Source of the DNA: Blasia pusilla
Taxonomy: Eukaryota
Assembly: GCA_050084515.1 (NCBI GenBank)
Contig: CM114271.1
Coordinates: 2,604,001-2,668,000, forward strand
DNA: 64,000 nucleotides
Reading direction: 5' to 3'
The translations under genes were made by a program, and so were the position numbers. Of this stretch, positions 30,459-62,850 are shown piece after piece. Numbering within the stretch: the first letter of the stretch is position 1; each line of letters begins with the position of its first letter. Below the pieces are notes generated by a model. It ran no database searches and was not told where the DNA came from. It saw only the letters and a program-made list of their open reading frames with translations.

Positions 30459-30780
30459 TGTCTTGCGCCTACTCCTCTTGAACATCAATCTAATATATTG
30501 CCGAAGCACACGTTCAAAAGGTCACGCTCACTCTGCTGATTTGCACCCAAACATCTCGCCAAACACACTATGATTAGTCTTGATTTGAATCAATCAGCCT
30601 TCTAACTCCACGAATACTCAACTTGGATAATACATCACGCTCAAAAGGTCCTAATTTCTCACTTCCTAACACGAAAAAATCTTTAAAGACTTGGGACATA
30701 CTTTCTAGATAGTCTAGGCATCTAAAATGACGCTTACACACCTAGCGGTCCCAAATGTTCAATATATTGAAGACTAAGTT
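30459..30780 (-). mobile_element. Truncated, diverged LTR of the chromovirus family
   Basis: It begins TGTCTTGCGCCTACTCCTCTTGAAC and contains AAAGACTTGGGACATACTT and CCTAGCGGT, as in the LTR at 42154. Confidence 0.65.
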
Positions 30781-32747: not shown

Positions 32748-33750
32748 TTTCGTGCGTCTACTCTTCTTGAACGTTAATCTTTGTTTGTTGCGGGAGCGTG
32801 CGTTCGGTAGGTCACGCTCTCAACGTTGATCTGCATCCAAACACGCACTCTCGTTAGTTGGGTTTAGATCAATCAGCGGGCTAACTTTCTGAGGTCTCGT
32901 CTCGGTCTCTTATCGAGCTCAACCTTCCTAGTTTCGTAGTTTATAACATAGGAAAGTCTCGAAAGACTTGGGACAGACTTTCTGGTCGGTTCAGGAACCT
33001 TAAACGGCGTTTTGTGCCAAGAAATTCCAAATGTTCCATGGACATCAAATGAGTCCCTAATTGAGACTCACACAAAATGAATGAAGGGTCGGAATCCAAG
33101 TGTGGCGTATAAAGTCCACTCCCTTGGATCAGATTTGGGTTTTGAGTTCCAAGGCCATACTCTCGTGCCCTTGAGACGCCGTTTGGTGCTCAAAGTGGGG
33201 TTTGTGTTCCAAGACATCTTGGAAAGACTCCATCTTACTAGTACGTTTGGGGATCTCCGGGGTCCTCCTAACTTTAGGGAAAGACAGCCGGGCCCCTCAA
33301 ATTGGCCCTCAACCCGATTGCTCTCACAATCATTTTTGGACAATATCTCAGTCTGTACTAATGCGTTTGTTGAGATCTTTGGTGCGTTGGAAGCGTCTCA
33401 AGATAAGGTTTCTAACGCGCCCTTACTTGGAGCTAAAATTTATGTTTCAAAACATAGTCAAATTCCCCAAACGCTAGTCGTGTTCCAAAACTAGTTCTCA
33501 CCTCTTTAGCAATCAACCTTCCAAGACTCAACTCATCACACGTCTTGGTTCTCGTTTGGTCTAGGTTTCCTGATCGTGACCACTACCGCATGAAACGTAC
33601 AACTTTGTTCTGCGTTTTGTCCCTTGGACTTTTCCAAGAGACCTTCCAAAAGCCTCTCCAAAGCGCGATCATTGTCGCGTGAGTCCACTTGAGTTCTGAT
33701 GTTCCGCTTGGTGCCTATCTGGTGTTCGTTTGGTTATGAGGGTCCCGAAA
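32748..33750 (-). mobile_element. Solo LTR (~1.0 kb) of the chromovirus family with 5-bp TSD ATTGT
   Basis: Collinear with LTR 42154-43170 over its whole length. ATTGT occurs at 32743-32747 and 33751-33755. The termini have decayed to TTTC...GAAA. Confidence 0.9.
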
Positions 33751-42000: not shown

Positions 42001-42153
42001 GACCTATCTTCTTATACGAGGCGGGTCTTATTAAGTTGGAGAGCAGCAAGGCCACAACCCACTTAGGGGAGAGGGGGAAACCCCTAAATCTAACCTTACC
42101 AATAGAAGAAATGCCATTAGCAACGGTTAAAGAATCATGACAAGCAGTAGGAG

Positions 42154-45100
42154 TGTCGTGCGCCTACTCTCCTTGAACGTTAATCTTGTTTGTTGCGGAA
42201 GCGTGCGTTCAGTAGGTCACGCTCTCAACGCATCCAAACACGCACTTTGGTTAGCCGGGACTTGGATCAATCAGCGGGATTACTTTCCGAGCTCTCGTCT
42301 CGGACTCTCTCTTCAAGCTCAACCTTCCTAGTTTCACGGTTTCCAACACGGGCAAGTCTCGAAAGACTTGGGACATACTTACAGTCGGTTCGGGGAACTG
42401 AAAACGGCGTTTCGCGCCTAGCGGTTCCAACAGTCCGATGAACATCCAATGAGTTCCTCACCAAGACTTGTACGAAGTGAATCTCGGGTTGGAATCCAAG
42501 TGTGGCGTACAAAGTCCACTCCCTTGGATCAGGTTTGGGTTTCGGGTTTCCGCGCCAAACTCCCGTTTCATCCCATGCCTCTGAAACGCTGTTTGGCGCC
42601 CAAAGTGGGGTTTCGTTTCCCGAGACATCTCAGAGAAGGTACTCCCCTTGCTAGTACTTCTGGGGATCTCCGGGGCCCCTACATTTAGGAAAGACACCGG
42701 GCCTCATTGGCCCTCAACCCGATTGCTCTCTGAATCGTTTTCGGCCAATATCTCAGCCTGTACTTATGCGTTTGCTGAGATCTTTAGTGCGTTGGAAGCG
42801 TCTCAAGATCAGCTTTCCAACGCGCCCTTATTTGTCCCGAACGCATCTCGGAGCTCAACGTTATGGTCCTAAACACAGTCAGATTCTCCCAAACGCTAGC
42901 CGTGTTCCAAACTGGTTCTCACCTCTTTGGCAACCAACCTCCAAGACTCAACTCATCTCAAGTCTCGGCTCGCGTTTGGTCTAGGTTTCCTGGTCGCGAC
43001 CACTAACGCATGAAACGCACAACTCTGTTCCGCGTTTCGTCTCTTAGACTTTTCCAAGAGACTCTTCCAAACGCCTCTCCAAAGCGCAAACCTCGCGGCA
43101 TGAGTTCCTTTGAGTTCTGATGTTTCGCTTGGCGCGTATTTGGTGTTGTTTGGTTATGAGGGTCGCGACACTCACCCCTCCTTAGAAGGTTGATGTCCTC
43201 ATCAACGCAAACCTTATTGATGTTAAGTTCTGGGAAGCCAACCCCTTAACACAGAATCGCGTTCTGGTAGCTAACCCGCAATTCCTCTTTTTGGCTTAAG
43301 TCTTAGGTTGTCGCTTGCAGCACTTAGACTTATTAGCTTCTCTTTCTCACGAGCCTAGACTAGTTCTGCGGAACTAATCTAACTATCAAAATAAGCTCAC
43401 TAAGTGCGCAACCTAACACTTCACTCACTATTTGTAAACAACCACTTTGTCTACCTAGCCAACTCATTACTACTTTTGGGTCACTTGTACTCCACCTAGG
43501 CGCGTCACTAAGTTCAGTCATGAAACATGAATGAGATCACCACAAACCCCAAGACAGACTCATCTCCCTTCCGACGTTAGGGCGAGCCCAAATGCTAGTA
43601 CTTCAACACTTGGTCCTAATCTAGATGCCTTATCCGAATACAAGCTCTCACCTCAAATACTCATTGTTTGGTCTCCTTGACTTACATCCTAAGCATATGA
43701 AGAACTACTCATTGCCTTGCACAAACCAAACTCAAAATTACAATACAAGCATCGAATCTCCAAATCCATGTCTTCTTTATTGCAACAACTAAACCTTTCT
43801 AGTTACAACGGGTTATCGGCCCAAGCTTTCCGGTCACAAGTTATGTCCATTGCTTCACCATGTACTAACGCACGTGCCTTTCTTGCATCCATCTGAAGTC
43901 ACACAATGCTTCTTACGCATGTTCTAGATCCGCCTCCGCAATCCAAGTCGCCTCTTTCACATGATAGCCTTTCCACTTAACCAAGTACTAGTACTTGGTG
44001 GCCCTACGTCTGGAACGCAGAATAGTCTCAACCTCGAACTCTGGTTCCTCATTTTTGATGACCGGTTGTGGTCTCAACATCCTCCTTCGCTCCGGACGCA
44101 CATTGTCTTGAAGATACTTCTTCAATAATGACACATGGAAAGTCAGGTGAATCTTGAACTCGTTTGGCAACTCCAATGTGTACACATCCTCAAACGGCCT
44201 TGCCTTGATCACATACGGTCCAGCATACTTGGCTGACAATTTCGCGGACAATTCCTTCGGAAGAGTGAGATTCTTAACACTCAACCACACTTGTTCCCCA
44301 ACTTGGAAACTCACTTGGCGCCGACTTTTGTTAGCATGCTTTACGTACCTTAGTTGAGCCTTGGCGAGACTTTCTCTCGCTTCGCTCTGGTCGTTCTGCA
44401 TTTCCACTAACAAACATTCCGCCGTTGCTTGACGAGTGTGTGTCGATGTATTGCCCTTCGAAAAGAGCTAAGTCAAGAGGCCCTTCGGTTCTCTTTGATA
44501 CGCCAGAAGAAACGAAGATTCTCCGGTTGCAGAATGCTTAGTCGAGTTGTAACAATACTCAGCCATACTTAACCACTTGGCCCAATCTCTTTGGTCCGCA
44601 CTCACGTAATTCCATAAGTATTGGTTTACGATCGAGTTTAATTTTTCCGTTTGCCCATCCGTTTGAGGATGGAAGGCCGTACTAAAGCTGAGTTTGGTCT
44701 GGAACCTCATGAATAGATGTTTCCAAAAGGCACTGGTAAACTTTGGATCCCGATCGGACACAATGCTCCTAGGCAATCCGTGCGCACGCCACCAACCATC
44801 CAGGAATAGTCGGGGAAGTCGTGTAGGCCGTCGGACTCTCTCGTCGGCACAAACCTCCCCAACTTGCTAAACCGATCAACTATCACAAGTATAGCGTTGT
44901 ATCCCTCAGATTTTGGAAGACTCGTAATGAAATCCATGCTAATGCTTTGCAAGGGTCCCTCCGGGATTGGCAAAGGATGAAGTAAACCTTGTTTCTTCGC
45001 ATAAGACACGCGGTTTGCCTGGCGGAGTCACATGTTTTCACATATTGAGCAACATCTTCCTTCATGTTGGGCCGGAAGAACCTCTTAGAAAAAAAAAAAA

Positions 45101-48100
45101 AGCAAGAGTGGATTTCTCCCTTTGTGTCCCGCCAAAGGTCCATCATGACATTCCACAAACACCTTGGTCCATAGCTTGCCTTGGCCTACATAGATCTGCT
45201 CTGCTTAAACCTTAGCAAGCCGTGTCTCAAACTCAGATTGGCCACCTTCTCGCCCGCTTTAACTTCCCAAGGTACTCCTCGCTTGCTCATCCTTCATGTA
45301 TCCTTCACTTAATCCTTCTTTCCAGGTCTGTTTCATTAGGGAACATTGCTCTCAACACTTGTGTCGATGGCATGTGTTCATCCTGCGACTTAACGATCTG
45401 GAATGACATTATCTTTCCCGGCTTATGGATTAGCTCCACATTCATCAACGCCAAGGTATCATGCCACGAAGTTGTTTTTGCGCCACGCGATCCTGGGTCT
45501 CAAAATACTTGAGCGATATGTTATCGGTGAATACTCGAGTCTGTGAAGTCCCAAATAGTGACGCCACTTCCTCAAGCAATGAACCACCATAAAAACTCTT
45601 TCTCATGAGTAGGCCGTCTCCTTTCGTGTCGGTCAACTTCTTGCTTTCGTATGCTCTGGTCTCCCTTTTGCACCAACATTCTTGCAATCGCGAAATCACT
45701 AGCATCCGTGTGCACCTCGACGGTTGTTCAAACTCCGGAAGCTTGAGCGGTTCTGCGAGAGGATCTCTTTGACTCGATTGAACGCTTTATCCACTTCCTC
45801 GGTCCATGTAGTATTGGAAAACTTTGCGGTCCAATCCGTGAGAGGTTTCACTATGCCCGAAAAGTTCTTCACGTATGTCCGGTAAAACTGGACATCTCCA
45901 ATGAACCTTCTCATCCCCTTCACCGTGGAAGGCGGTTCCCATTCGGCAATCGCGCTCACCTTTTCCATGTCTGGACTCACTCCATCCGCACTAACCACAT
46001 GCCCCAAGAACTTGATCTTCGTCAAACCGAACTCACTCTCTTATCCGCATTCGCATACGACTTGTTCGCCTAAGTTTCTCAAACACCGTCTTCAAATGTC
46101 GAGCGTGCTCCTCTAGTGTCTTCGAATAGATGAGTATGTCATCTATATAGATGATCATAAACTCATCCGTCTCCTTGTGAAAGATGGAGTTCATCAAAGT
46201 GGTAAACGTCGGAGGCGCATTACAAAGACCGAAAGGCATTACTACAAACTCGAACGAACCGTATCTCGTCCCTGAGCAGTCTTCTCTACATCCGCCGGCA
46301 ATCCGAATCTGATAATATCCTGATTTCAGGTCAATCCGGCTGAAATACTTGGCACCCGACAATCGATCAAAGAGGTCATCCATCCTCGGTAGAGGATAGT
46401 TATTCCTTACCGTCACTTTATTCAGCGCCCGATAATCAACACAGAGTCTCAACTTCCCATCCTTCTTCTTTACAAAGAGGACGGGCGCCCCATAAGGTGA
46501 CTTGCTTGTTCGGATGTAACCCCTCTCTAGGAGTTCACCCAACTGTTTCTTCAACTCAGCAAGTTCCTCTTGATTCAACCTATATGGTGCCTTTGAAGGT
46601 GGTTGAGATCCTGGTATCACCTCAATCTTATGATCAACCGCCCTATGTGGTGGCAACTCAGTCGGAAGCTCCTTAGTCAACACATCTTCAAATTCTTTCA
46701 CAACTCTCTTGAGTGTTTCAGGGATCCCCCTTGAAGCTGAGTTCTGATCTCTGCGAAGCATCTGAGTGCGAAGCATCTGTATCAACGAGCAACATCACAT
46801 TGCGATTAGCAATCTTGGATCCTAGGTAAACCAAATTGGGCGTTCTCTTGGTGACTTGTAGAGATGTATCTAGATCTCCCTCCGATAAATGCTTAGCGGC
46901 AAACGCAATCATACTCGGTTTACTAACCTTGGGCCTAACACATTCCTTAGCCATATGCCCGGGTTCGCCACAATTGTAGCAAATCACTTTGGCATTCGCT
47001 GACTTCGTAAACGGCGGCCCCTTTGGCTTCGCGTTGAGTTCCACTCGTTTCGCCGCTGGGGCAAGAGACCCTCCATGGTCACGCTCACCCCCATTCCAAA
47101 CCCTCTTGGATGTCCCTTTGTTCTTCTGTAACTTAGAAAAACTTTTTGTCTCAAAGGGTTTCGGGTGTTGGACTTCATCGTCCCCAATCCGCTCGGCTAG
47201 TCTCAAGAGGTCCGCGCACGTCTCTGGGATGTGAGGCATACGAAAGAGAGCCTTCTTGGCACTCGGTTTGAGCCCACTTAGGAAGATCACCTTTTTAGTA
47301 TGTTCATCCGTGGAAAGTGCACTTATGAGCGCACTAAACTCTCGCACATAAGCGCCAAGTGATCCACTCGGCGCAACCTCACCACCTCCATGCCATCGCG
47401 GTACTCTGATATTCGGAGTGAATCGGTTCCCAATCAACTCCTTGAAATCTTCCCAACTCAACGTTTTCCCACGACCTAGATGTTCTTTGCGGTGAGCCGT
47501 CCACCAATGGAGAGCGTGATCCTTCGTAAACGTGACCGCTCTGATCACCTTGTCTTGTTCATCTGCTTTTGCGCTCGAAATAGAGTTCGAGTTCCGTTAG
47601 AAACTCGCTCACTTTCCGAACGCCCCATTCCTATGAATGGCGTTGGCAAATTAGTCTTACAAAGCTTCTTGCCGTAACTAGAGGCTCCATTTGACTTGAA
47701 TTCGATATCACCTTGCTCTGTTCAGCCATCTGGTCCGCCATCACCTTCATCAATCCCATCATTTGGGTATAAAAGGCCGGATCGTTTAAGTTTGGACCCA
47801 AAGGTCCCGCGGAAAGATTTTCGGTTGGAACATCCTCATGTCAGGACTCGGCACTTCGAGTCATAAATTCCACCTCCGGCTCTCGGTCCGTCATTGATTC
47901 GTCTCTTGGCTTTTTGCTTTGACTCGCGGTTTCCTCGATTCTTCGCCCTTGGTCGCCATTTTTCGTCGCCTTTTCTCAGATCTCCTCCTCGCCTCTTGCG
48001 TTCCTCCTCGGCGTCGCGGTCTTCCGGCTACCTTGAGTTCTCCCCAAACTTCCAGATCTTCAACGACCCCAAGTTCACGCTCATCAAGGAATTTCTCTGA

Positions 48101-49126
48101 TACCACGTGTCGTGCGCCTACTCTCCTTGAACGTTAATCTTGTTTTTTGCGGAAGCGTGCGTTCAGTAGGTCACGCTCTCAACGCATCCAAACACGCACT
48201 TTGGTTAGCCGGGACTTGGATCAATCAGCGGGATTACTTTCCGAGCTCTTGTCTCGGACTCTCTCTTCAAGCTCAACCTTCCTAGTTTCACGGTTTCCAA
48301 CACGGGCAAGTCTCGAAAGACTTGGGACAGACTTTCTGGTCGGTTCAGGAACCTGAAACGGCGTTTCGCGCCTAGCGGTTCCAACAGTCCGATGAACATC
48401 CAATGAGTTCCTCACCAAGACTGCACGAAGTGAATCTCGGGTTGGAATCCAAGTGTGGGCGTACAAAGTCCACTCCCTTGGATCAGGTTTGGGTTTGGGT
48501 TTCGCGCCAAACTCCCGTTTCATCCCATGCCTCAAACGCTATTTGTTTGGCGCCCAAAGTGGGTTTCGTTTCCGAGACATCTCAGAGAAGGTACTCCCCT
48601 TACTAGTACTTCTGGGGATCTCGGGGCCCCTACATTTAGGGAAAGACACCGGGCCCCTCCAATTGGCCCTCAACCCGATTGCTCTCTGAATCGTTTTCGG
48701 CCAATATCTCAGCCTGTACTTATGCGTTTGCTGAGATCTTTAGTGCGTTGGAAGCGTCTCAAGATCAGCTTTCCAACGCGCCCTTATTTGTCCCGAACGC
48801 ATCTCGGAGCTCAACGTTATGGGCCTAAACACAGTCAAATTCTCCCAAACGCTAGCCGTGTTCCAAACTGGTTCTCACCTCTTTGGCAACCAACCTCCAA
48901 GACTCAACTCATCTCAAGTCTCGGCTCGCGTTTGGTCTAGGTTTCCTGGTCGCGACCACTAACGCATGAAACGCACAACTCTGTTCCGCGTTTCGTCTCT
49001 TAGACTTTTCCAAGAGACTCTTCCAAACGCCTCTCCAAAGCGCAAACCTCGCGGCATGAGTTCCTTTGAGTTCTGATGTTTCGCTTGGCGCGTATTTGGT
49101 GTTGTTTGGTTATGAGGGTCGTGACA
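42154..49126 (-). mobile_element. Full-length Ty3/Gypsy chromovirus LTR retrotransposon (gag-PR-RT-RH-INT-chromodomain), frameshifted
   Basis: LTRs at 42154-43170 and 48108-49126 (TGTC...GACA) are near identical. TSD AGGAG at 42149-42153 and 49127-49131. PBS TGGTATCAGAG on the minus strand (48105-48095). PPT AAGGAGGGGTGAG (43183-43171). Motifs [47 protein letters not shown] and FEVETIL...YLVKWKGY. Confidence 0.97.
43912..47900 (-). pseudogene. gag-pol of the chromovirus, broken into many frames
   Basis: ORF pieces 46718-47548 (gag/PR), 46033-46785 (RT), 45699-46025, 44468-45009 (integrase) and 43988-44413 (GPY/F region and start of chromodomain). Confidence 0.9.
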
Positions 49127-51101
49127 AGGAGGGCCTCTAACAATCACGTTTCCCATAGCTTGAGCCCATTGTACATGCTCATTGGCTTGGGCACACTACA
49201 AAGTGTTGGACACTCGTTGTCAACAATATAAGAGTTGTCACGTCTCTTAGGATAGATCGGTGAGATCTAGTAGAGAGCCTTCGTGAGTAGCGGAGGACAG
49301 GCCCAGTAGGTCGAGGATGACCTGTTGAGTATGTGATCAACTTTCTATTTTTGGTAAGTGGCCCTTGACCTCCTACATGAGGTCAAGAGCCAAGGAGGTG
49401 ACTTGGGAGCATAGGTTACCATGGAGAGAGCTTGGGAGGAGGAAGGGGTATACCTCAAGGAGAGAGATTTAATCTTATTTTACAAAGAGAGAGTGAGAGA
49501 GCTTCTGTTTTTGCACGTTGGGGACCGTGTTCCCCGTTTAGCAGCTCACCGGAGCAAGGGCTGCTTTGATTGTTCTTTGCATTTGCCGATTTTTCGTGTG
49601 GAAGAGTGGCGCGCGGAAGCGTTGCCCAATTTCTGATAGGGATTGATTATGGGGGCAGGTTGCCCCATGCCGGTGCTCTCGGGAGCACCATGTAGCTTGC
49701 TGATTTGTATTTTTACAGGTTTTACATTTTTTTGAGGAGAAATCAGGGCGGAAGCGCAACCAAATTTTATGTAGGAGAAAGAGACATTGGGCTTCACGAC
49801 TGTCCCTGTCAGTTTTTACTCAAATGTTTGATTCCAAATATTTTTTATGATGTTGTAGATTTTGAAGTTTTGCACATTGTACAACAAACAATGCGCAATT
49901 TGAAGTTGCGAGCAAAAAGTTATGGTCAATCTTGCAAAACTTCCATTGCTAGGCGATTTTTAGGGTTAAATTGTTCAAACCCTAAACCAGCCGCCGCGCC
50001 AGCGGCAATTGTCTCCGTCATAGTCACCGTTAAGTTTCAACCATCACCGTCGATGCTCAACCGTCACCGTCACCGTCACCATCAACAGTCCGTCGTCACC
50101 ATTAATGGTCAACCGTCACCGTCAACGGTCCACCGTCCATCGTCGGTCGCTGCCGTCGCCTAGCGCTGCTCATAGCCACGTTCGGCCGTTGTCCACCCTT
50201 TGGTTTCTATTGCCGCCATTATGGAGTGGAGGGTCTTCCACGACCACCGTTGATTCTCTGACTTGCGCCGCCACCACGTACTTTGGTTTGGCCGCCACCG
50301 TCATCGCAGTTTCGTCATCAACCAGTGATGGTAGGTGACCTCGAGTTATGGTGTTTGAGTTTTTCATTTCATGTTTCTATGTTGTGATTGGTAGCTTCTC
50401 AACAACGATCGAGAACCGTGCCGTGACACCCATAGCCGCAACGCGCTGCCGATTGCCGCGTCGTGCCGCTCGTGGCCGCACCGCATTGTCTCGATCGCGG
50501 AGCCGCTCCTTCACTAAGGAGCAGAGCGTGTGAATTTTTGATTGAGTAGGGTATGCCGCCAAGTGCCGCACGCCATTCCTGAGTGCCGTGCCGTTTGTAG
50601 CCGCTCCGTGCCGCGAGTGCCGCACTGGACCATTGGACCTGCAACGCACATCGAGGAGGTTTGAGCACCGTCAATACGAGAGGAGTACGACTTGCTCATT
50701 GGAGGAGTTGTCTTTACGACCAAGTTGGGGTCGAGATTTGCAATTACCGAGGAGCGACATCAATATTATTGTCAGGTTACCCATTCTGGTCTCTTACCCT
50801 TCACGTATGAGGGATTTCCGAATATTGGGAAGTTATTTGGGATATTGGGTTTCGTGTTGATGCTAGGAGCATCGATGATGTATGGGTTTAGGGGACATAG
50901 ACTTGTGTGGGATGTCCAAAGTTGAGGATGGTTTGTTGATGAGATGATAGATAAGTGATTTTCCCCACCACGCTGCTTGTTGCCGCACAACACACGTCTT
51001 AGTGAGAGAGTGTAGATTGAGTGCCGCATGTTTAGTTTGAGTGATTGAGGGATTACTCGCGAGATTGAGAGTGATCGTGTGAGAGGGGCACAAGGGCCAT
51101 C

Positions 51102-53670
51102 ATGGCATCCTTTCGGGATTTTGAGAGGCGAGGTAGTGGACCTGAGAGTAGCTCAAGAGGGTTTACCCGGAGTGGTGCGAGGTTTCGAGGGTCTCCATGT
51201 GAAGGACCACCTCGATCTCCTTTTGTGTCATCTTCAAACGAGGGGGAGCGTGTAGAGGAGTGTGTTAGTGATCCACCGTACACATTGAGTGGTCGTTGGG
51301 CGTACGAGATGGACGACCGGGATAGAGGACCACGTAGGTTTTCGGATGCTATAGGCACTATAGAGCTACACGACTTCATTGCGGAGTTTAAGAGTTGGTG
51401 TGACTCACAACGGGCTAGGTATTGTAAAGAGTTCAACATGTTTACGACATGGAACGGTATGTTCTATTATTTAGAGGGGGCGCCCATGGACGATTACCAT
51501 GAGTTCTCCCACAGTTATGCCCAAGAGATTGAGGCATTGCGACTCTACTATGACCCACACTATGTGTCATAGACGGAGCCGTTCCCAGATGAGGAGGAGG
51601 AGTCAAGAGAGGTTATTTCCTCTTCCACTAGTGACATTTTAGGAGGGGTCTCTCTCACTGGAGCAGTTGCACCGTCTAGTCGGATTCGTCCCACGTTCAA
51701 CCTGTGGTTGAGTTCTTTGTTGAGTTGAGGGCAAGCTACCAGGAGGTACGGACGGAGAAGTTGCGGAGCATCCACAACTTCCAGAGGCGCCCGAGTGAGA
51801 GTTTGCTTGAGGCTTACACTCACTTGCGCCGGTTGATCAACGTCACTCAGGGGTGACAAAGGCTCAGGCTATCCAGTCATGGTACGCGATGTTGGACCGG
51901 ACCCTACAGACACGGGTACGGGAGGGGATGCTTCTTATGAACACCTCCCCTATATTGAGAGATGTTGTTAGGACTGTCAAGAACATTGAGCGCAATATGG
52001 AGGAGGAGAGCGTAGCCACCATGGGTTCTAGGCGAGAGCAGTCACGATTGTCTGCACCACATGTGCAGCAATGTGGACTTCGAGATAGGTCGAGTGTGGC
52101 ACCACGAGCTGAGGGAAGATACCGGGAGGGCGTGCCACAGAGACATGCGCCCTCATATGCGGCTTTGCAGCAGCCGCCTACTATTACTTGTTGGTCATGT
52201 GGTGGAGCCCATCATCAGCGCGATTGCACTCGTCAGGGTCACGGATGTATGCCTCAGCATGGAGGAGGAGATGTTGCTACACCAAGAGGTTATCAATGTG
52301 ACTATTGTCAGAGGTATGGTCATACACGCGCCAGGTGTTTCAGTTTACATCTTGAGTTACATGCGGACCAAGGGCTAGAGAGGGCACCAGAGCGAGTAGC
52401 CAGTCCGGGTGCGCTAGAGATCATGCACCAAGTGGTCTTGTTGGGGGACGAGGAGCTCGAGTTGCTCGACATGGTGGTGGAGCTGCTTATGGAGGAGGTA
52501 GAGTACAACCACCTAGACGCGCCGACAGAGACACCGGACGTGAGGCTGGGATGGCTGTTCAGATACAGCAGCTACATGAGCAAATTGCCGCTATGGCATT
52601 GAGGTTACTCGATGCCGGATCCGTAGAATCGACATCATATGGAGCAACCAGAGTTATGGAGGATCCTGGTTGGATGTGCGGGGTTGCCCAGATGGAGGCC
52701 GCCGCGGTTGTGACGCGTGGAGCAACCGCAAAGTTGGATCCACAGCGAGGGGAAGCCATGAAACACACTAGGCTTCCTCAGTCTTTCACGTTGTCCAAGG
52801 CGATGAGGACTCCATCCATGGGTCCTTATCAGAGTTCCTGGAGAGTTGGTGATGTTGTTAGTGTGCAGGCACGGAGAGCGATGGGAGAAGCAAGTGCGAC
52901 GACTCCTATTGTTGATGCTCATGAGGTGCATGTTTCGAGCACGTTGTTGGGGGCGGCCACTGTTGTGTACCGCACTCCTTTATTTTCTGCTTCCGATGTT
53001 ATGACGTTGGGGGGTACGTCGGCGAGGCTTTTCGGCTGGCCGCTTCACTATGTGAGCGCAGAGGTGGAGTTCCTGCATCATGTTCAGAGGTGATTGCAGA
53101 GGAGGTGATGGACCTGCCCTTGGAGCGAGTGATCGGCGCGTCCATGTCAGATTCATGGCAGGCTGTGGCTGCTAGGATGGCGGAGATGCCCGCTAGATCC
53201 GCGATAGAGCGTGCCATGGCTTCTCCTGGTGTTGTGTTGTTGGATAACTAGGGAGAGGTCTTCCACTTGGTGAGTCCCGGAGGTAGAGCTTTTAAGCCGC
53301 AGCGCGTCTTGTTGGATTTAGGAGCGCAACCCCTGATGTTGGGGAAAACGTCATTTAGAGGATTGGGCTTGACGAGAGTCAATGTGGAGCGTTGTCCATT
53401 CTGTGTACAGACATCCTTGGATGGCGCGAGTACCACACAGTATATCACCCGAGAGGAGTTCGTGGTGAGGATTCGCCCTGGACATCCTACAGATAAGTCG
53501 GTGGTGCGAGCCAAGGCGATAGTGATTGATGCAGAGTCCTACGACGTCTTAGTTGGTGGAGCAATGTTATACCCGATGGGGTTTTCCCTGGATTACTGGG
53601 AGGAGTCAGCGTCCTACACACCAGGATGGCAGTCAGATGATGGGCGCCTTAGCTCATTACACGTTTGATT
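51102..53670 (+). pseudogene. gag with two Cys/His knuckles and an aspartic protease (decayed)
   Basis: CWSCGGAHHQRDC and CDYCQRYGHTRARC lie in ORF 51853-52602. The protease RVLLDLGAQPLML...YDVLVG lies in ORF 53267-53668. Confidence 0.8.
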
Positions 53671-54027
53671 CACAAGTGCAATGATCGAGCGATGGCCAAG
53701 AGAGTGGCGACCTTAGCAACATTTAGCAGTGCCATCACTTGGCCTAGTGATTTGATTGAGGGACATGTCCATGCAGAAGATACCCCCGTTCGGGACATTT
53801 CTATGGAGAGGAGTGTTATGGTAGGCGCATCATTCCGTGGAGGAGAGGTGCGGTTGTGGGGCTCGACTGAGGAGCTTCGACGATTTGCAAATGAGCACGT
53901 GCAGACCGCGTGGAGCGAGATGTTTGCACCAAAGCGTGATGGGTCTGAGGAACCCGAGGTAGCAGGGAGTGCTACGCTGACACCCTTGGATACCACACCC
54001 ATTGTGTGGCGTATTCTGGAGGAGGAT

Positions 54028-54980
54028 ATTCATGTGTTAGATCTCTTTGGAGGGATAAGCACCGGGTTAGCTGTTGTTTTGCAAGCAGGAGTGCGACTGC
54101 ATCAGTACCTGTATGTGGAGAGTGATGATGTTGCAAGGCGCCTCTCACTACGACATGTGGCGCAGTTATGCCTACGTTTTCCCAACTTGTTGTCTGCATT
54201 CGCAGTACAGGGGTTCCAGAGTTCCCTACCGAGGGATATTTCGTTGCTGGGGGTGCAGGACTTGGAGCGGGTAGGGACCATTGATTTGGTCATTGCAGGT
54301 TGGCCATGTCAAGGTCAATCGAGTGCTGGACGAGGCATCGGGTTGGTTGACACTCGATCCATGTTATTTTGGGAGATGTTGAGGGTCTTGAGATATTTGC
54401 AGGAGCATCAGTCCCATTCTCCGACTTACATTCTGGAGAATGTACCGATCTTGGGCGATTCAAGGTCACGGGTGGTGACGAGTGCACATCAGGTGCGTGC
54501 CTAGATCGGCCTAGCATTAGTTTTGAATGCGGCGAGTGTGGGTTCTCGAGCACATTGCCCGCGTCTATGGTGGACAAACATGGTACCACACGAGGTGTTG
54601 CGGAGGGCGTATGCAAGAGTAGAGCACCCCTCCCACTTGTTAGTGGATTCCATTCAGGATCCGGGCATCGATCATAGGCAATAAGGCACGATGATCGACC
54701 ATCATTGACTGTGGTCAACAGGGTAGGCCGGCCACGAGCAACTTTTCCCACGTTTGTGAATTTTCCCGGTTCCTATGCATACAAGGAGGCCAATCTTGGC
54801 TTCGTTTGGGATGATCAGGTTCAGAGGTTGGTGGAGCCCAACGCCGACGAGAGAGAGTGGGCGATGGGATTTCCCACAAGAGTGATGGCACTACCGTCAG
54901 TGTCAGAGGCATCACGACGCCATGTCTTGGGTCACGCAATGGACCTGAACTGCTTGACATGGATCTTCAGCTTGGGAGTG
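54028..54980 (+). pseudogene. C5-cytosine DNA methyltransferase domain embedded in pol (one premature stop at 54502-54504, one frameshift at ~54665)
   Basis: Motifs occur in canonical order: I VLDLFGG, II YVE, III RDIS, IV DLVIAGWPCQG, V DTRSMLF, VI YILENV, VIII SRAH(C)PRLWWTN, IX EREWAMGF, X LGHAMD. Confidence 0.93.
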
Positions 54981-55319
54981 GCTGGAGCAACGTTGCATGA
55001 GATTGCGACACATCACAGCGGTTGCGTTGGTGAGCCCCATGCCTACCGAGACGGTGGAGGCAGTGGCTGGGGGCGAGACTCGAGGAGATCGACACACCAA
55101 GGGAGATCAGGAGAGACACCCTTGGACTTCTTGGGATGTTTTGCAGGTACGCTAGGAGATGATAGCCACAGCGTCGAGCGTGGTTTAGGGCAATTCATGT
55201 GGAGGAGATCAGAGTTTGCAGTTGGTTGCAGGAGAGCGGCCAAGTGTTGGTGTTCGAGATAGGGTTGCACCATAGCAACCATCGATACCCGCGTCGGAGA
55301 GTCCTACCGCAGTCACGAT

Positions 55320-58240
55320 GGAGACTTGGGAGCCAGATATGGGCCCTAAGTTTATAGGAGAAGAGCGGCACCGGATACATCAGTTCCTTAGGAGTTATAG
55401 AAGCTGCTTTGCATTTAGCATGGAGTATTTGGGTACTCTGAAGGGATCATGGATCCACATTGAGTTGTCGAGTGATACGCCAATCTTCCAACAATCCTAC
55501 AGGTATAGTGATATGGAGAGGGCTCTGATTCAGAGTAGAAGCCAGGACTTGGTTGGAGCATGACGAGTGGAGATGTCGCATGGGGAGTATGCATCTGCCA
55601 TTGTCATGCATGCCAAGAAGGATGTGCATGGCAACTGGATGGATAGGCGGATGTGTGGGGATTATCGGCTTATCAATCGGCGGACGAAGTCTGATAGGTA
55701 TTCCAAGCCCACTCCAGAGGAGATCTTTGATGCGATTGGTCACCCAAAGGTCTTTAGTTCATTGGATTTGTGAGCCGGATACCATTAGCTGCCTATCAGA
55801 TTGGAGCACAAGCAAAAGACGGCATTTTGGGGCATCGATCCTCACGGGAAGGATTGTTTATACCAGTGGCCGTTCTTGCCATTTGGGTTAAAGAATGCCC
55901 CGGCTGAGTTTCAGAGGGTCATGGATAGGATCTTGGCAGGTCAGGATTTTGCTAGGTGTTACAATGATGACATCGTAGTCTTTAGTGCCACAGTTGAAGA
56001 GCATGAGCGACATCTAGAGGAGGTGTTTCGACGATTGCAGTTACATGGGCTGAAGCTACATCCAAGAAAGTGTAAGTTCTTCTACGACCAGATTGAGTAC
56101 TTGGGTCATACGATATACCCATGTGGCCTTGGTGTTCAGCAGACAAAGGTAGAGGCTATTTCACGCATTCCCCGCCCTACAGATGTGAGCCGCGTTCGTG
56201 CATTCATGGGATTGGCGAACTTCTATCGGCGGTACGTCAAGCAATTCAGTTTGATTGCGAAGCCACCGACCTTGCTGACCAAGATGGATCATGAGTGGCA
56301 CTGGGGGGATGAGCAGGAGCAAGCATTTCAGCTGCTCAAGGACAGATTGACGTCTGCGCCCATCTTGAGGAGACCGATCAGGGGGGGTTCCTTTCCAATT
56401 GCACATAGATTGGAGCATGTTGGGGCTTGGAGTGGCGCTCACCCAACATGATGATGAGGGTAGAGAGTTCGTGATGGCTTATGCTAGCCGTTCGAACAAC
56501 GTTGCAGAGGCCAAGTATAGCTCGTATGAGGATGAGTGTTTGGCTATGATGTGGGCTGTCGCACATTTTAGGTGTTACTTATTCGGAAATCCCTTTACCA
56601 TCATCACTGATTATCAACCACTAAATTGGTTGATGGAGTCCGAAAAGCTTACACGGAAGCTTGCAAGATGGGCTCTGTTGCTACAGGAGTACGATTTTTA
56701 GGTGGTACATCGACCAGGGATGGTCAACTAGGATGCAGATGGGCTAAGTTGTAACCCATGCCCGAGTGAGCGAGGTGAGACTGGAGCTTGATGGCATGGA
56801 GAGAGTGATGAGGAGTTAGTGCCAGGATGGCACGCGTCAACCTATTTAGGCTTGTTGGCTATGGAGAGCCAAAGTGTGGAGACTTTGATAGCGAGGTCTG
56901 ATGGAGAGTCCTTGGATCCCAAGGCCAATGAGGAGACGACATGTGGCCGAGATATTCATGATGATGGAGTAGTCTTGGAGTATCTGCGTACTGGCAGCGT
57001 TGCGATTACAATGGGTGCTAGAGAGCGGGATTGGGTCCTATAGCGGGCTAAACGGTTCCGCTGGGAGGGGACACATGTGTTGCAAGTGTGGGAGAATGAT
57101 AGAGTGCGTGTAGTGCCTCATCCTTTGCACAGAGCACATTTGGTGCATCATGCCCACAAGGAGTTTGGTCATTTTGGAGTGAAGCAGACATATAGCTTGC
57201 TCCAGATTCAATATTGGTATCGAGGCATGCAGAGTGACGTTTAGCAGTTTGTTGTCAGATGCATGGTGTGTGATTGAGTCTAAGCATCGTTCAATGCTCT
57301 AACTCCACATTTGCATCCACTTCTGATCATGGGTTTAGGTTATAGATGGAGTTTGGATTTTGCAGGACCTTTGCCTTTGACGGAGCACCATAGTGGTTAT
57401 GTATTGGTGATGGTCGAGCACTTCTCAAAGTGGATAGAGTTGGTTGCATTGCCTGACAAAGCGAGTGAAGGAGTAGCGTATGCCTTCCTAGATCGAGTGC
57501 TGAGTCATTACGGCGCACCAACTGAGGTGTTGACAGACCAGGGTACAGAGTTTCGCGGAGAGTTTCAGGCCTTATATGATTAGGCACTGATCGACCACCG
57601 CACTACTTCGCGAGATCATCCTGAGTCGGATGGACTAGCGGAGTGGGTTGTGCAGACGGTGAAGAGAGGACTACGCAAGTATGGCTTGAAGAGAGGTCAT
57701 CTAGGAGATTGGGACCTTCAGTTTCCGTGGTTGGCGATGGGATACAGATTCAGCAGGCAGACATCCTTAGCGTCTTTCTCACCGTACTTGTTGCTTTATG
57801 GCCGTGAGCCAGATTTACCTACGGCCATTCGTTGAGATACTGGTGAGGTGTTGAACCTTGATGACCCTGATGTATGGATGCAAGCATGTTCTGAGAGGGT
57901 TGAGTTGTTTCGAAGAGTCATGCCCATGGCGTTTGAGAACTTGGCGATTGCGCAACATCGGGATACGTTGAGGTATGCGACTATTCGGGGAGGTGGTTAT
58001 CGACCTCCTATCCGGAGGTTTCATCAAGGAGACTATGTCTACTTGCAGCACACGGCATCCACGACGTTGGATGTGACTACAAGGCACACCATCTTGAGAG
58101 TGCGTGAGGTTTTGCCATATGGTGTTCTCTTATTAGAGGGACGCGATGGTATGGTTTGGAAGGACCATGTGCGTAACTATGCGCCATGTCATCTTCCGAA
58201 CATTGATGGTACAATTGATCCGAGCTTAGCAATAGTTCCT
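55320..58240 (+). pseudogene. Reverse transcriptase, RNase H and DDE integrase of the DNMT-carrying element (stops and frameshifts)
   Basis: RT: RRMCGDYR, LPFGLKNAPAEFQR, CYNDDIVVFS. RNase H: DWS...AYASR...ECLAMMWAV...TDYQPL. Integrase: WSLDFAGP...LTDQGTEF. Confidence 0.92.
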
Positions 58241-58249
58241 CTAGGCTTG

Positions 58250-58393
58250 CGGTGTATGTTTTGTGGTTCCGCCCGTGGTGCAGCTACTATGCTAGTATGT
58301 GATGGATGTTCGAGAGGATGGCATATGGCATGTTTGACGCCATCTCTCACTAGGATTCCTCAGGGACGATGGATGTGTCCCAAATGTACATAG
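58250..58393 (+). other. PHD finger (C4HC3) at the integrase C-terminus
   Basis: RCMFCGSARGAATMLVCDGCSRGWHMACLTPSLTRIPQGRWMCPKCT*, in frame with the integrase tail (ORF 57848-58393). Confidence 0.93.
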
Positions 58394-60074
58394 AGTAGGT
58401 AGTTCTACATTTCGACTTGTGTCTTTGACATGGATGACAAGAAGTCGACTAACGATAGGGCCACATGAGCACCCGATCTTCTTGCTCTTAGCGTCCAAGA
58501 GATGTATATCATGGTAGGTAGGGATAGATGGCTATCTGGAATTAGAGGGACCTAACCACCAGCTAAGGGGGCGATTGGAGATATTTTGGTACTTCTTGTC
58601 TTGTTGTTTGGATGTCATGAGTTAGTAGGGGATCGTGCGTGTTTGTGTGTGTGTTCAGTGACAGCAATTTATGTTGTGTAGCGATGTGTATGCGCACGAC
58701 AGTTGTCACGTCTCTTAGGATAGATCGGTGAGATCTAGTAGAGTGTCTTCATGAGTACAGACTGAGTAGGTCGAGCATGACCTGCTTAGGCCGCGGGAAA
58801 CTTGAGATAGCAGGTTTCCCCTTCGTTTCGGCTCATTTGGAGCCGTATTGAGGAACTTACTATTTTAGGTAAGTACCATTTTGAGTATGTGATCAAGTTT
58901 CTATTTTTGGTAAGTGGCCCTTGACCTCCTACATCAGGTCAAGAGCCAAGGAGGTGACTTGGGAGCATAGGTTACCATGGAGAGAGCTTGGGAGAGGGGA
59001 GGGGTATACCTCAAGGAGAGAGAGCTTGAGAGCTCATTCTCTCTTTGTTGAACTTCTTGGCATAAGGCGGCGGAGCTATGGTCCCTTGCCTTGTGAGTGT
59101 AACCCAAGCCTCTCATTAGGAGAATGGGTTTGGTTTGTCATAAGAGAGAGTGCACACCTTTGAGAGCTATGGTGTGAGATGGTGTAGAGAGAGATTGGAT
59201 CTCACTTTATTGGTGATATTTTGGTACTTCTTGTCTCATTGTTTGGATGCGATGAGTTAGCATGGGATCATGCATGTTTTTGTGTGTGTTTGGTGACAGC
59301 AATGTAAGTTGTGTAGCGATGTGTATGCGCACGACAGAGTACACTAGCTCAAGATAACCCATTTCTCAAGTGGAGAAGATGTGCACAATTAATAAAAAAA
59401 GCATCAAACCTCTCACCCGTAAGCTCATGAATTTCAATAACTAATGGGACAAAATTATATTCTTTGCAAAGACAACTATAATGTAAAGTCCTCTTCCATG
59501 CCTCTGTCGGCGATGTTCCTTATATCTCCCTCATGAAATCATATGTGCCCAAATTGACTCCCATGTAAAATATGTAAATACAACATAAGTTACCATCACG
59601 TTAGCCTCTCGTGGCATGTATATGTCATGTATTTCTTGAGTGAAAAAGATGGGTGAACTCGGCAAGGAAAACATCAACCGATTCAAACCTCTCACCAAGA
59701 GCCCCATAATCTCAATAGCCCTCGCACCTATTCATCCTCGGGTTAAAGGGTTAGACGTGGGTTATGTTTGAAGAAGGGCTCGTGCAAAAAAGGCAACATC
59801 TGAGGGGACTCGAACTTGGGACGTACACCTTCTTAGTGATTGTACCATCCACTCCACTTGAGTTTCATGCATGAAAGGCATGGAATTAATAAAACTCTTA
59901 ACAGTTATCCAAAATAGAATATGTGGCTTCAAGATCTTGACCTCGAGTTAACTAATCCGAGGATGAATAGGCTGAAGGTCAATAGCTAATTTTCACGAAT
60001 AGTTGAGTCTATGGCACCCACACTAGCGGGGGATCCGGGAAGCAAGTCATGATCGCGGGTCCAAGGAGGAAATA

Positions 60075-60538
60075 TGTCACGTCTTTTAGGATAGATCGAC
60101 GAGATCTAGTAGATCGCCCTCGAGGATAGTGGAGGATAGCCTTAGGAGGTCGAGGATGATCTACTAAGGCCACGGTAACCTGAGAGAGAAGGTTTCCCCT
60201 TTCCCTTCATTTGAAGCCATATAGAGAAACCTTACTATTTCGCGTAAGTTTCCGTTTTGAACATAGTTGACTTTATAATTTGGGAAGTGGCCCTTGACCT
60301 TCTACAACATGTCAAGAGCCAATGAGGTGACCTGCAAGCATATGTTATCAGAAAGAGAACCTCCAAGCATAGGTTATTGTAGAGAGAGTTTGGAAGAGGG
60401 AAGGGGTATACCCAAAGAGAAAGGGTTTGGGAGCTCATTCTCTCTTTGTTGAACCTCTTGGCATAAGGCGTCGGAGCTATGGTCCTCCTTGACTTGTGTG
60501 TGAAACCCAAGCCTCTAATTAGGAGAGTGGGTTTGGTT

Positions 60539-60607
<69 letters not shown>

Positions 60608-62095: not shown

Positions 62096-62151
62096 AACCA
62101 CTGCAGTTGAGAAGGAAGAGGCTAAGATCATGCCAGGCAGGCTGGCTGACT

Positions 62152-62850
62152 TGGCAACCCCAATGGGGTGGCTCAAAGCTCCTCTAACAACCCATTTTAC
62201 GGTTGGAGAAGACTATGGCAACCCTAGTAGGGCGTGTCAAAGCTCTGATTTTACCACTATAGAATGTTCTGGCAACCGTACTAGGGTGGCTCAAAGCTCA
62301 TATAGCAACCGATTTTACGGTTGGAGGAAACTCTCTCAACCCCAATAGGCTATCTCAAAGCTCCTCTAACAATCAATTTTACGGCTAAAGGAAACTCTAG
62401 CAACCCTACTAGGGCAGTTCAAAGCTCCTCTAACAATGGATTTTGCCGTTGGAGAAAACTCTCGAAACCCTAGTAGGGGGCGTCAAACCTCCTCTACCAA
62501 CCAATTTTACGACTGGAGAAAAATATGGCAACCGTAAGGCATCTCAGAGCTCCTCCAACAACCAATTTTATGGTTGAAGAAAACTCTGGCAACCCTTGTA
62601 GGGTGACTCAAAGCTCTTCTAACAACCAAGTTTACAATTGGAGAAAAAATTGGCAACCCTAGTAGGGTGGCTCAAAGCTCCACTTTTGACAACTAATTTT
62701 ATGGCTGGAGAAAAATATTGCAACCCTGGTAAGGCAGCTCAAAGCTCCTCCAACAACCAATTTTGTGGTGGAAGCAAACTCTGGCAACCCTTGTAGGGTG
62801 ACTCAAAGCTCTTCTTCTAACAACCAAGTTTACAATTGGAGAAAAATTAT
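62152..62850. repeat. Minisatellite, ~11 units of ~64 bp with internal palindromes
   Basis: Consensus TGGCAACCCTAGTAGGGTGGCTCAAAGCTCCTCTAACAACCAATTTTACGGTTGGAGAAAACTC, with units starting at ~62152, 62216, 62270, 62334, 62398, 62462, 62526, 62587, 62651, 62718 and 62781. Confidence 0.92.

What the first reader, a model, noticed from the sequence alone, without database searches (positions are those of the whole stretch)
49236..59340. Split direct repeat termini (A1...B1-GT-A2-B2) on a DDE-integrase Gypsy element
Seen: the left end carries only segment A (49236-~49484, with two internal deletions). The right end is B1 (58576-58701), GT, A2 (58704-~59210), then B2 (59211-59336). B1 and B2 are both 126 bp, start TGG(A/T)GATATTTTGG and end GCGCACGACA. 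A purine tract AAGGGGGCGA directly precedes B1. The whole unit is bounded by TGTC...GACA and a GAGT duplication. B1-GT-A2 is an internal copy of the end-to-start (circle) junction. Known: A1-ORFs-B1-A2-B2 is the hallmark layout of PAT/TOC1/Ngaro tyrosine-recombinase elements, not of canonical Gypsy elements. Inference: this family may use a non-canonical reverse-transcription and strand-transfer scheme.
Basis: partly seen in the sequence, partly recalled or inferred. Interest (0 to 1): 0.8.

Follow-up and report, generated by a model that had tools for sequence, protein, structure and literature searches.

The report
Gypsy retrotransposon cut inside its repeats
This is an old, dead copy of an abundant jumping-gene family of a moss- or liverwort-like plant whose DNA copy appears to join its own two ends and then be cut open at a built-in palindrome before it inserts, a route that departs from the textbook way LTR retrotransposons and retroviruses integrate.

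Summary
The layout is real and family-wide: A-internal-B-GC-A-B with 4-bp target duplications (19 of 24 complete copies exact), a DDE integrase, no tyrosine recombinase, plus Dnmt3-like and PHD domains. The short A1 here is copy-specific damage. Reverse transcription looks canonical, not PAT/Ngaro-like: a Tf1-type self-priming site follows A1 (covarying between families) and a purine tract precedes B1, so the true LTR is B-GC-A. The A2|B2 joint is exactly that LTR's end fused to its start. It comes in two forms (818 and 306 genome-wide) that follow neither the tree nor linkage, so it is made anew each cycle. The integrase ends lie inside the LTR as the palindrome GACA-GC-TGTC; three independent B-GC-B copies look like cut-and-filled by-products. 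Best reading: the cDNA ends are joined and integrase opens the left palindrome. The mirror product expected from a symmetric circle was not found, so the step is directional, for an unknown reason. The layout was noted once, unexplained, for KnitGypsy-Dnmt3 (de Mendoza 2018), and this scan found it before on two other genomes (e1-7364823, e1-7364106). No cDNA or biochemical evidence yet. Close relatives exist in Marchantia polymorpha.

The parts
49232..49235 (.). left target-site duplication GAGT
   Evidence: matches 59337-40
49236..49482 (+). A1: left end (TGTC...), the part of the LTR downstream of the internal palindrome; two copy-specific deletions, the second removing the predicted transcription start and self-primer
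   Evidence: full-length ~514-nt A1 in other copies
49483..49497 (+). primer-binding site for Tf1-type self-priming (complement of 59033-59047; one G-U-type mismatch in this copy)
   Evidence: perfect 15-nt complement in 21 of 30 left ends, control max 9
51075..52602 (+). gag-like region with zinc-knuckle-like motifs, broken by stops and frameshifts
   Evidence: weak zf-C2H2_10 E 8e-4; equivalent ORF of L034 weak Retrotrans_gag E 0.011
53252..53668 (+). probable aspartic protease (LLDLGA motif); inferred from position and motif only
   Evidence: no Pfam hit
53653..55262 (+). C5 cytosine methyltransferase of Dnmt3 type (PC and ENV motifs), broken
   Evidence: PF00145 E 2e-10; best solved relatives DNMT3C/3B/3A E ~4e-6
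55529..56701 (+). reverse transcriptase and RNase H, broken
   Evidence: PF00078 E 2e-22, PF17917 E 9e-34
57044..57835 (+). integrase: zinc-binding domain and rve core; D, D(35)E readable across the stops
   Evidence: PF17921 E 2e-8, PF00665 E 1e-11; translation
57836..58393 (+). integrase C-terminal part ending in a PHD finger
   Evidence: PF00628 E 1e-11
58565..58573 (+). polypurine tract AAGGGGGCG directly before B1
   Evidence: same tract before an unrelated B in family 2 and in metagenome relatives
58574..58701 (+). B1: start of U3 (ATTGG...GCACGACA); inherited master copy of B
58698..58707 (.). internal palindrome GACA-GC-TGTC (here decayed to GACA-GT-TGTC): the two integrase ends head to tail
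   Evidence: kept in family 2 and metagenome relatives with unrelated A
58704..59209 (+). A2: rest of U3, R and U5; TATA-like motif at 59005, predicted start and self-primer at 59033-59047
59205..59214 (+). A2|B2 joint: end of U5 (TTTA) fused to start of U3 (ATTGG); short form here
59209..59336 (+). B2: right end (...GACA), second copy of B
   Evidence: B1 and B2 share copy-private variants (21 against shuffle mean 8.5, max 15)
59337..59340 (.). right target-site duplication GAGT

Best explanation
A Ty3/Gypsy LTR retrotransposon whose integrase ends have moved from the tips of the LTR to a palindrome inside it. (1) RNA starts inside A1 about 28 nt after a TATA-like motif and ends mostly inside A2 (inferred; RNA depth fits the end, the start is not shown). 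(2) Its first ~12-15 nt pair with the site just after A1 and prime the minus strand, as in Tf1; the purine tract primes the plus strand (sites shown, priming inferred). (3) Ordinary strand transfers then give a linear cDNA with two B-GC-A LTRs, whose tips (ATTGG... and ...TTTA) carry no TG/CA integrase ends (follows from 2). (4) The right tip is joined to the left tip, blunt (27%) or over a shared A (73%), anew in every cycle (shown statistically; the joining agent is inferred: I slightly favour a template jump by RT over host end-joining, because the joint is so precise). (5) Integrase cuts the left LTR's palindrome GACA^GC-TGTC on both strands after CA, which yields in one step two recessed CA-3' ends with 2-nt 5' overhangs, and inserts them with a 4-bp duplication, giving A-internal-B-GC-A-B (inferred from the ends, the duplication and by-products). 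The preference for the left palindrome may reflect that the left LTR becomes double-stranded long before the right one (guess).
For: Layout in copies picked without reference to it: 30 of 30 left ends start at A with no adjoining B; 26 of 30 right ends are B-A-B. Exact 4-bp TSD in 19 of 24 complete family-1 copies, 3 of 4 letters in the other 5, and in 7 of 9 family-2 copies. rve integrase present, no recombinase hit in 51 ORFs. Self-priming: perfect 15-nt complement starting exactly at the A1 end in 21 of 30, control max 9; family 2 has an unrelated A and a different PBS that matches its own A over 8-12 nt in 8 of 11 left ends; metagenome copy L137 17 nt. Joint made anew: 38 short, 13 long of 51; the 13 long rows need 13 changes on the tree (shuffled mean 11.8); no linkage (min p 0.023, the same as shuffles) while 11 of 14 transversion sites have p<1e-3; the same letters show no length change at the A1|PBS boundary (30 of 30) or in the ATT after the purine tract (57 of 57); genome-wide 818 short, 306 long, 1162 A|PBS; the long form is also in Illumina reads. 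By-products: three insertions with different flanks read PPT-B-GC-ATTGG-B, all long, none short, as if a cut and filled palindrome had been joined to the PPT-defined tip. Palindrome kept while A and most of B turn over. RNA: sense depth about 6-7 times higher over B1 than B2 and falling across the end of A2. Precedent for step 5 in vitro: foamy virus and HIV-1 integrases cut palindromic LTR-LTR junctions (PMC1180852, passages; PMC1905944, abstract).
Against: No cDNA, circle or cleavage was observed; all is read from inserted copies. The directionality is unexplained: the two palindromes have the same sequence for 126 nt on one side and 514 nt on the other. The RNA data mix many diverged copies (most reads 90-95% alike), part of the A depth comes from A1, and no step is seen at the predicted start. 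The tree is star-like (12 of 48 inner branches starred), so the tree test alone is weak. The one family-2 by-product sits after A (A-B-GC-B), not after the PPT as I predicted. Self-complement was absent or short in 3 of 11 family-2 left ends (one of them mis-picked by my script) and not convincing in five of the eight metagenome left ends tested. The four copies that end at B1 have TSDs of 3/4, none, none and 3/4, so they say little.
Confidence: 0.72

Rival explanations
1. PAT/Ngaro-type scheme: the RNA runs from A1 into B2, and the cDNA ends are rebuilt by pairing with the internal B1-A2 junction; a DDE integrase replaces the recombinase.
For: The repeat order is the same as in PAT, Ngaro and VIPER elements (PMC6681497, PMC4157794, PMC8969392; passages). 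B1 and B2 share private variants, which this model also predicts. Some RNA does cross into B2.
Against: It does not need a PBS or PPT, yet A ends exactly at a covarying self-priming site and B starts exactly at the purine tract. It predicts an inherited A2|B2 joint, but the joint shows no phylogenetic or linkage signal. RNA depth drops at B2.
Confidence: 0.1
2. A plain covalent 2-LTR circle, made by host end-joining, is opened by integrase at either palindrome with equal chance.
For: The element is an exact circular permutation of a 2-LTR circle of B-GC-A. The three PPT-B-GC-B copies suggest that the right palindrome can be cut.
Against: Half of the insertions should then read A-B-GC-A-internal-B. 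None was seen: 0 of 30 left ends, 0 of 11 family-2 left ends, 0 of 20 new A-B picks, 0 of 26 joints in the first 10.6 Mb of C1 (exact-match motifs only, and only 10 of those 26 joints had an intact palindrome upstream, so sensitivity is about 40%); 1 of 27 PBS sites had a palindrome upstream and it is a head-to-tail dimer. A circle with a biased cut remains possible and is part of the best explanation.
Confidence: 0.07
3. Same anatomy, but the ends are exchanged without a free join: integrase cuts the left palindrome, holds the released B piece, and B is ligated to the U5 end only during host repair of the insertion.
For: Explains the directionality and the two joint forms equally well; B-GC-B and A-B-GC-B by-products show B pieces being joined to other ends.
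Against: Needs a 128-bp piece and a 10-kb piece to stay in one complex and to be rejoined almost without loss: 51 of 52 joints have one of only two forms (L104 is the exception).
Confidence: 0.08
4. One-off deletion, tandem insertion, recombination or mis-assembly.
For: This copy's A1 is damaged; some copies show assembly-like noise.
Against: More than a thousand exact joints in the genome, distinct TSDs, a second family, short-read metagenome contigs of other organisms and Illumina RNA reads all show the layout.
Confidence: 0.01

Closest known systems
KnitGypsy-Dnmt3 of Klebsormidium nitens (de Mendoza et al. 2018, PMC5890265; passages of the main text and a term search of 3 supplementary files; the figure itself not seen)
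   Same: Gypsy domain set with a Dnmt3-like methyltransferase in Pol; the Fig. 4c legend says the repeat structure is that of a DIRS element (A-coding-B-A-B) while the domains are those of Gypsy.
   Different: The passages I saw give no mechanism, PBS, PPT, palindrome, TSD or PHD ('phd' 0 occurrences in the text). No Klebsormidium sequence was compared here, so orthology is untested.
PAT / TOC1 / Kangaroo / Ngaro / VIPER tyrosine-recombinase retrotransposons (passages)
   Same: Order A1-internal-B1-A2-B2; an internal copy of the two ends head to tail.
   Different: They use a tyrosine recombinase and make no TSD; this element has an rve integrase, TG/CA ends, 4-bp TSDs, a PBS and a PPT.
Tf1/Sushi and plant Tcn1 self-priming Gypsy elements (PMC4600332, PMC6317226, PMC11042837; passages)
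   Same: PBS complementary to the 5' end of the element's own RNA; Gypsy domain order.
   Different: They carry ordinary terminal LTRs and mostly a chromodomain; here the integrase ends in a PHD finger and the integrase ends lie inside the LTR. Clade membership not tested.
Integrase cleavage of 2-LTR circle junctions in foamy virus and HIV-1 (PMC1180852 passages; PMC1905944 abstract); the 1984 circle-precursor model of Panganiban and Temin (seen only as a citation)
   Same: A palindrome of two integrase ends is cut on both strands to give processed ends.
   Different: There the palindrome is formed by joining the cDNA tips, and its use as precursor is described as unsubstantiated; here it is genome-encoded inside U3, and the tips that are joined are not integrase ends.
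IS3/IS911-type transposon circles (recalled, no call)
   Same: A DDE enzyme integrates from abutted ends separated by a few bases.
   Different: DNA transposons; their junction is made by the transposase in each cycle, not inherited.

Membership tests
Ty3/Gypsy LTR retrotransposons | gag, protease, RT, RNase H, integrase in that order | tested here: met
   RT, RH, integrase order by Pfam; gag weak, protease by motif only
Ty3/Gypsy LTR retrotransposons | DDE (rve) integrase, TG...CA ends, 4-6-bp TSD | tested here: met
Ty3/Gypsy LTR retrotransposons | PBS after the 5' repeat and PPT before the 3' repeat | tested here: met
Ty3/Gypsy LTR retrotransposons | two complete, identical LTRs at the two ends of the insertion | tested here: not met
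   30 of 30 left ends lack B; 26 of 30 right ends are B-A-B. It is Gypsy by its proteins but not a canonical LTR element by its ends.
PAT/Ngaro/VIPER (DIRS order) | split direct repeats A1-internal-B1-A2-B2 | tested here: met
PAT/Ngaro/VIPER (DIRS order) | tyrosine recombinase | tested here: not met
   no recombinase family among Pfam hits of all 51 stop-to-stop ORFs of 70 aa or more on both strands; a badly broken gene could be missed, but intact database relatives list rve and no PF00589
PAT/Ngaro/VIPER (DIRS order) | no target-site duplication | tested here: not met
   19 of 24 exact 4-bp TSDs
KnitGypsy-Dnmt3 lineage | Dnmt3-like C5 methyltransferase inside Gypsy Pol | tested here: met
   single ORFs with PF00145, RT/RH, rve and PHD among relatives, e.g. 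P0144, P0159, P0183
KnitGypsy-Dnmt3 lineage | DIRS-like repeat layout | tested here: met
   legend text
KnitGypsy-Dnmt3 lineage | RT and DNMT group with the Klebsormidium sequences | not tested
   no hit named Klebsormidium among the 240 listed; most hits are unnamed
Tcn1/Tf1-Sushi chromoviruses | self-priming PBS | tested here: met
Tcn1/Tf1-Sushi chromoviruses | chromodomain at the integrase C-terminus | tested here: not met
   PHD finger instead; no Chromo hit
Tcn1/Tf1-Sushi chromoviruses | placement in the clade by RT phylogeny | not tested
   no reference set of named elements was at hand

The most novel reading that the evidence does not exclude
A widespread green-lineage clade of DNMT/PHD Gypsy elements (liverworts and mosses shown or indicated; integrase-PHD relatives also in green algae) never uses the tips of its linear cDNA for integration. 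It joins them and has integrase open a genome-encoded internal palindrome in a directional way. This would be a natural retroelement for which an end-joined (circle-type) cDNA is the obligatory precursor of integration, and a functional halfway point between LTR and split-repeat DIRS elements.
Probability: 0.6. Interest if true: 0.88.

Novelty: new variant of a known kind. Interest (0 to 1): 0.76.

Why it matters
The rule that the linear cDNA tips are the integrase substrate is central to LTR-retrotransposon and retrovirus biology; whether end-joined circles can be true precursors has been argued since 1984 and rests on in vitro cleavage. A family with over a thousand joints in one genome whose every copy seems to pass through such a joint would make the question testable in vivo, in Marchantia polymorpha, which holds relatives 74-78% identical over the integrase-PHD region (their ends were not examined). 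It also offers a simple route by which split direct repeats can arise from ordinary LTRs. In practice, LTR finders would set the ends of these elements wrongly (A1...A2 without TSD), so the clade is probably mis-annotated in bryophyte genomes (inference).

Tried and rejected
Scars at the internal palindrome as proof of cutting: 11 of 38 B-A-B copies have indels in that 20-nt bin against a mean of 3.1 in 15 control bins, but four control bins reach 8-10, and scarred copies carry more indels elsewhere (3.2 against 1.1), so assembly noise is not excluded; not used as support. One scar (L265) is an 8-nt copy of the element's own left flank, a single case. A tRNA primer: no TGG follows A1 in any of 30 left ends; rejected in favour of self-priming. 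A transcription-start step in RNA depth: not seen. RNA folding with the start set at the predicted initiator A paired the 5' end with an alternative purine run, not the PBS, in 3 of 3 copies; with the start 3 nt earlier it paired with the PBS in 3 of 3, so folding is start-dependent. One search folded the wrong stretch and was not used. The look-up of sequencing runs listed no RNA holder on record. A long-gap pattern for B-GC-A-PBS could not be run; the question was answered by DNA queries and by crossing position lists. The family-2 survey script stopped after 27 of 30 loci. Of 80 metagenome loci only the 42 of 7 kb or more were scanned and 13 were read by eye; most were too short or collapsed at the repeats. 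The REM1 paper of Chlamydomonas (recalled as a PHD-bearing Gypsy) is not held. Literature: ten searches found the layout on a Gypsy element only in PMC5890265; passages of 10.64898/2026.05.21.726589, PMC7466625 and PMC11871058 do not describe it. Subscription papers, Repbase entries and bioRxiv supplements could not be searched and may describe it.

Full report
1. Observation. The window holds a 10,101-bp element from 49236 to 59336 between two GAGT. A1 lacks two stretches of a full A. The inside is a broken Gypsy gag-pol: Dnmt3-like methyltransferase (PF00145; best solved relatives DNMT3), RT, RNase H, zinc-binding and rve integrase, and a terminal PHD finger. None of 51 ORFs of 70 aa or more gives a recombinase hit. 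The genome is 390 Mb in 26 contigs. The nearest named relatives of the integrase-PHD region are from Marchantia polymorpha (78%, 74%), Calypogeia fissa (73%) and Sphagnum fallax (63%), with green-algal ones at 42-50%, so the host is probably a bryophyte (inference).

2. The layout belongs to the family. All 40 scored hits of the B-A-B block, of 6848 candidates, are full length; that query selects for the layout, so I drew samples that do not. Left ends picked by the end of A plus the 5' UTR: 30 of 30 begin at A with no adjoining B (one is the query's own copy). Right ends picked by the 3' UTR plus most of B1: 26 of 30 are B-A-B, two stop at B1, one has a damaged junction and stops, one is B-GC-B. 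Of 34 B-A-B copies whose upstream 10 kb I read, 24 had both ends in range; 19 have an exact 4-bp duplication and 5 match in 3 of 4 letters (shuffle mean 1.3). Four solo A-B units with exact duplications were among 20 new A-B picks, as A1/A2 recombination would leave. A second family in the same genome (RT about 70% identical, B 106 nt, A 368 nt, A without similarity to family 1) has the layout in 25 of 27 right ends read, no B before any of 11 left ends, and exact duplications in 7 of 9 B-A-B copies. Metagenome contigs of other organisms with RT 55-69% identical show it too: five separate insertions with both A and B pairs (L137, L145/146, L159, L186/187, L201/204), three with exact duplications read by eye.

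3. Where the primers sit. Directly after A1 lies a 15-nt perfect complement of A positions 338-352 in 21 of 30 copies; 600 control offsets reach at most 9 nt. A TATA-like motif lies 28 nt before that stretch. Family 2 has a different PBS that matches its own A near position 194 over 8-12 nt in 8 of 11 left ends, again about 30 nt after a TATA-like motif; L137 shows 17 nt. This is the signature of self-priming as described for Tf1 and Tj1 (PMC4600332, passages). The purine tract abuts B1 in 57 of 57 right ends and is the same before the unrelated B of family 2. By the standard rules of LTR reverse transcription, the repeat made on the cDNA therefore runs from the PPT to the PBS: B-GC-A. Its tips are ATTGG and TTTA, not TG and CA. 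The TG/CA ends lie inside it as GACA-GC-TGTC, kept in both families and in the metagenome relatives (16-bp perfect palindrome in L137), and 3607 times in the genome against 312 for the control.

4. The joint that is made anew. A2|B2 is the U5 tip followed at once by the U3 tip. It has two forms that differ by one A: 38 and 13 of 51 sampled (57 right ends less three without B2, L104, L110 and the duplicate L020), 818 and 306 exact matches genome-wide, beside 1162 A|PBS boundaries. The 13 long rows need 13 changes on a tree built without the joint (shuffled mean 11.8; well-supported branches force at least 6). The tree is star-like, so I added a linkage test on 49 rows (L006 and L007 dropped as rearranged): the joint form is linked to none of 92 variable sites (min p 0.023, equal to the shuffled median), whereas 11 of 14 transversion sites have a partner at p<1e-3. 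The same letters show no length change at A1|PBS (30 of 30) or after the PPT. Family 2 shows the same two forms (2 long and one other 1-nt insertion among 25), and the long form occurs in Illumina RNA reads. B1 and B2 of one copy share private variants more than shuffled pairs (21 against 8.5, max 15 in 2000; 47 copies). So B2 is a fresh copy of B1 and is attached in each cycle. A PAT/Ngaro scheme, in which the joint is part of the template, predicts the opposite.

5. Traces of the cut. Three insertions with different flanks read PPT-B-GC-ATTGG-B; the short counterpart has no match. This is what a palindrome cut after CA, filled in over its GC overhang and joined to the PPT-defined tip would give, and it suggests that the free tip begins with A, so that the short joint overlaps one A. 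Three identical deletions without microhomology are the less likely alternative (inference). The analogous family-2 search gave one match, but in the context A-B-GC-B, which I had not predicted. Indel scars at the palindrome are frequent (11 of 38) but may be assembly noise.

6. Direction. The element is a circular permutation of a 2-LTR circle of B-GC-A opened at the left palindrome. Opening the right one would give A-B-GC-A-internal-B. That form was not found in any sample: 0 of 30 and 0 of 11 left ends, 0 of 20 A-B picks, 0 of 26 joints on 10.6 Mb of C1; the one PBS of 27 with a palindrome upstream belongs to a head-to-tail dimer. A symmetric circle is thus unlikely. After the second strand transfer the left LTR is double-stranded long before the right one, which could let integrase commit to it; this is a guess.

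7. RNA. Three RNA-seq runs under the species label of the best holder (6-12% of each read) give mostly sense reads over the 3' UTR, B1 and A2, falling across the end of A2; depth over B1 is 5.8-7.0 times that over B2. This fits a 3' end in A2, but the reads come from many diverged copies, part of the A depth is from A1, reads that run from B into host flank can be placed on either B, and no step marks the predicted start.

8. Mechanism, shown and inferred. Shown: layout, duplications, integrase type, primer-site positions and covariation, non-heritable joint, absence of the mirror form in samples. Inferred: self-priming itself, the linear B-GC-A intermediate, the joining agent (RT template jump slightly favoured over host end-joining; Tf1 cDNA ends are known to be ragged, PMC11042837 passages), and the staggered cut. 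Integrases of foamy virus and HIV-1 can cut palindromic junctions in vitro.

9. Novelty. The layout on a Gypsy element with Dnmt3 was stated in one figure legend for Klebsormidium (PMC5890265) without a mechanism in the passages I read; ten searches of the held library found nothing further. Two earlier notes of this scan on other genomes reach a similar reading; I had formed mine before seeing them (notes), and they are not independent support. I rate it a new variant of a known kind: a Gypsy element by its proteins and primers, with an integration route that, if confirmed, no characterised LTR element is known to me to use. Interest 0.76.

Noticed in passing
window 53653-55262 and 57836-58393: The element carries both a Dnmt3-like C5 methyltransferase between protease and RT and a PHD finger at the end of integrase; relatives with the same set in one ORF exist. 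A methyl writer and a chromatin reader on one retrotransposon, here in a land plant rather than an alga.
   Followed up: partly
window 60075-60553: A diverged (75%) A-only relic 740 bp to the right of the element, running into an (AG)n microsatellite; no B follows it.
   Followed up: partly
window 42153-43170 and 48107-49126: A pair of ~1020-bp repeats, 96.7% identical, with an RT on the minus strand between them (45756-46254): an ordinary-looking LTR element 110 bp left of this one; older copies of the repeat at 30459-30754 and 32750-33744.
   Followed up: no
window 62106-62846: Degenerate tandem array with a period of about 64 bp.
   Followed up: no
L265 / L273 (G000:C3:1994700-2005525): The internal B1|A2 junction of one complete copy is replaced by 8 nt identical to the host sequence left of A1, as if a break at the palindrome had been repaired from A1 after insertion.
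   Followed up: partly
L278 (G000:C1:7357300-7360700): Three tandem 1036-bp units, each holding the end of A joined to B: a fragment of the element caught in a satellite-like repeat.
   Followed up: no
L276, L277 (G000:C1:3141900-3152600): Head-to-tail dimer A-PBS...PPT-B-GC-A-PBS..., the only PBS of 27 with a palindrome upstream.
   Followed up: partly
L011, L084, L098, L265, L258: AGGG is the target duplication in 4 of 24 complete copies and one solo unit; a mild target preference is possible.
   Followed up: no
L279 (G000:C2:39156450-39157150): A family-2 end with an extra B: A-B-GC-B.
   Followed up: partly
L186, L201, L205, L206: The more distant metagenome relatives have AT-rich, heavily decayed repeats and palindromes, as from strong C-to-T decay.
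   Followed up: no
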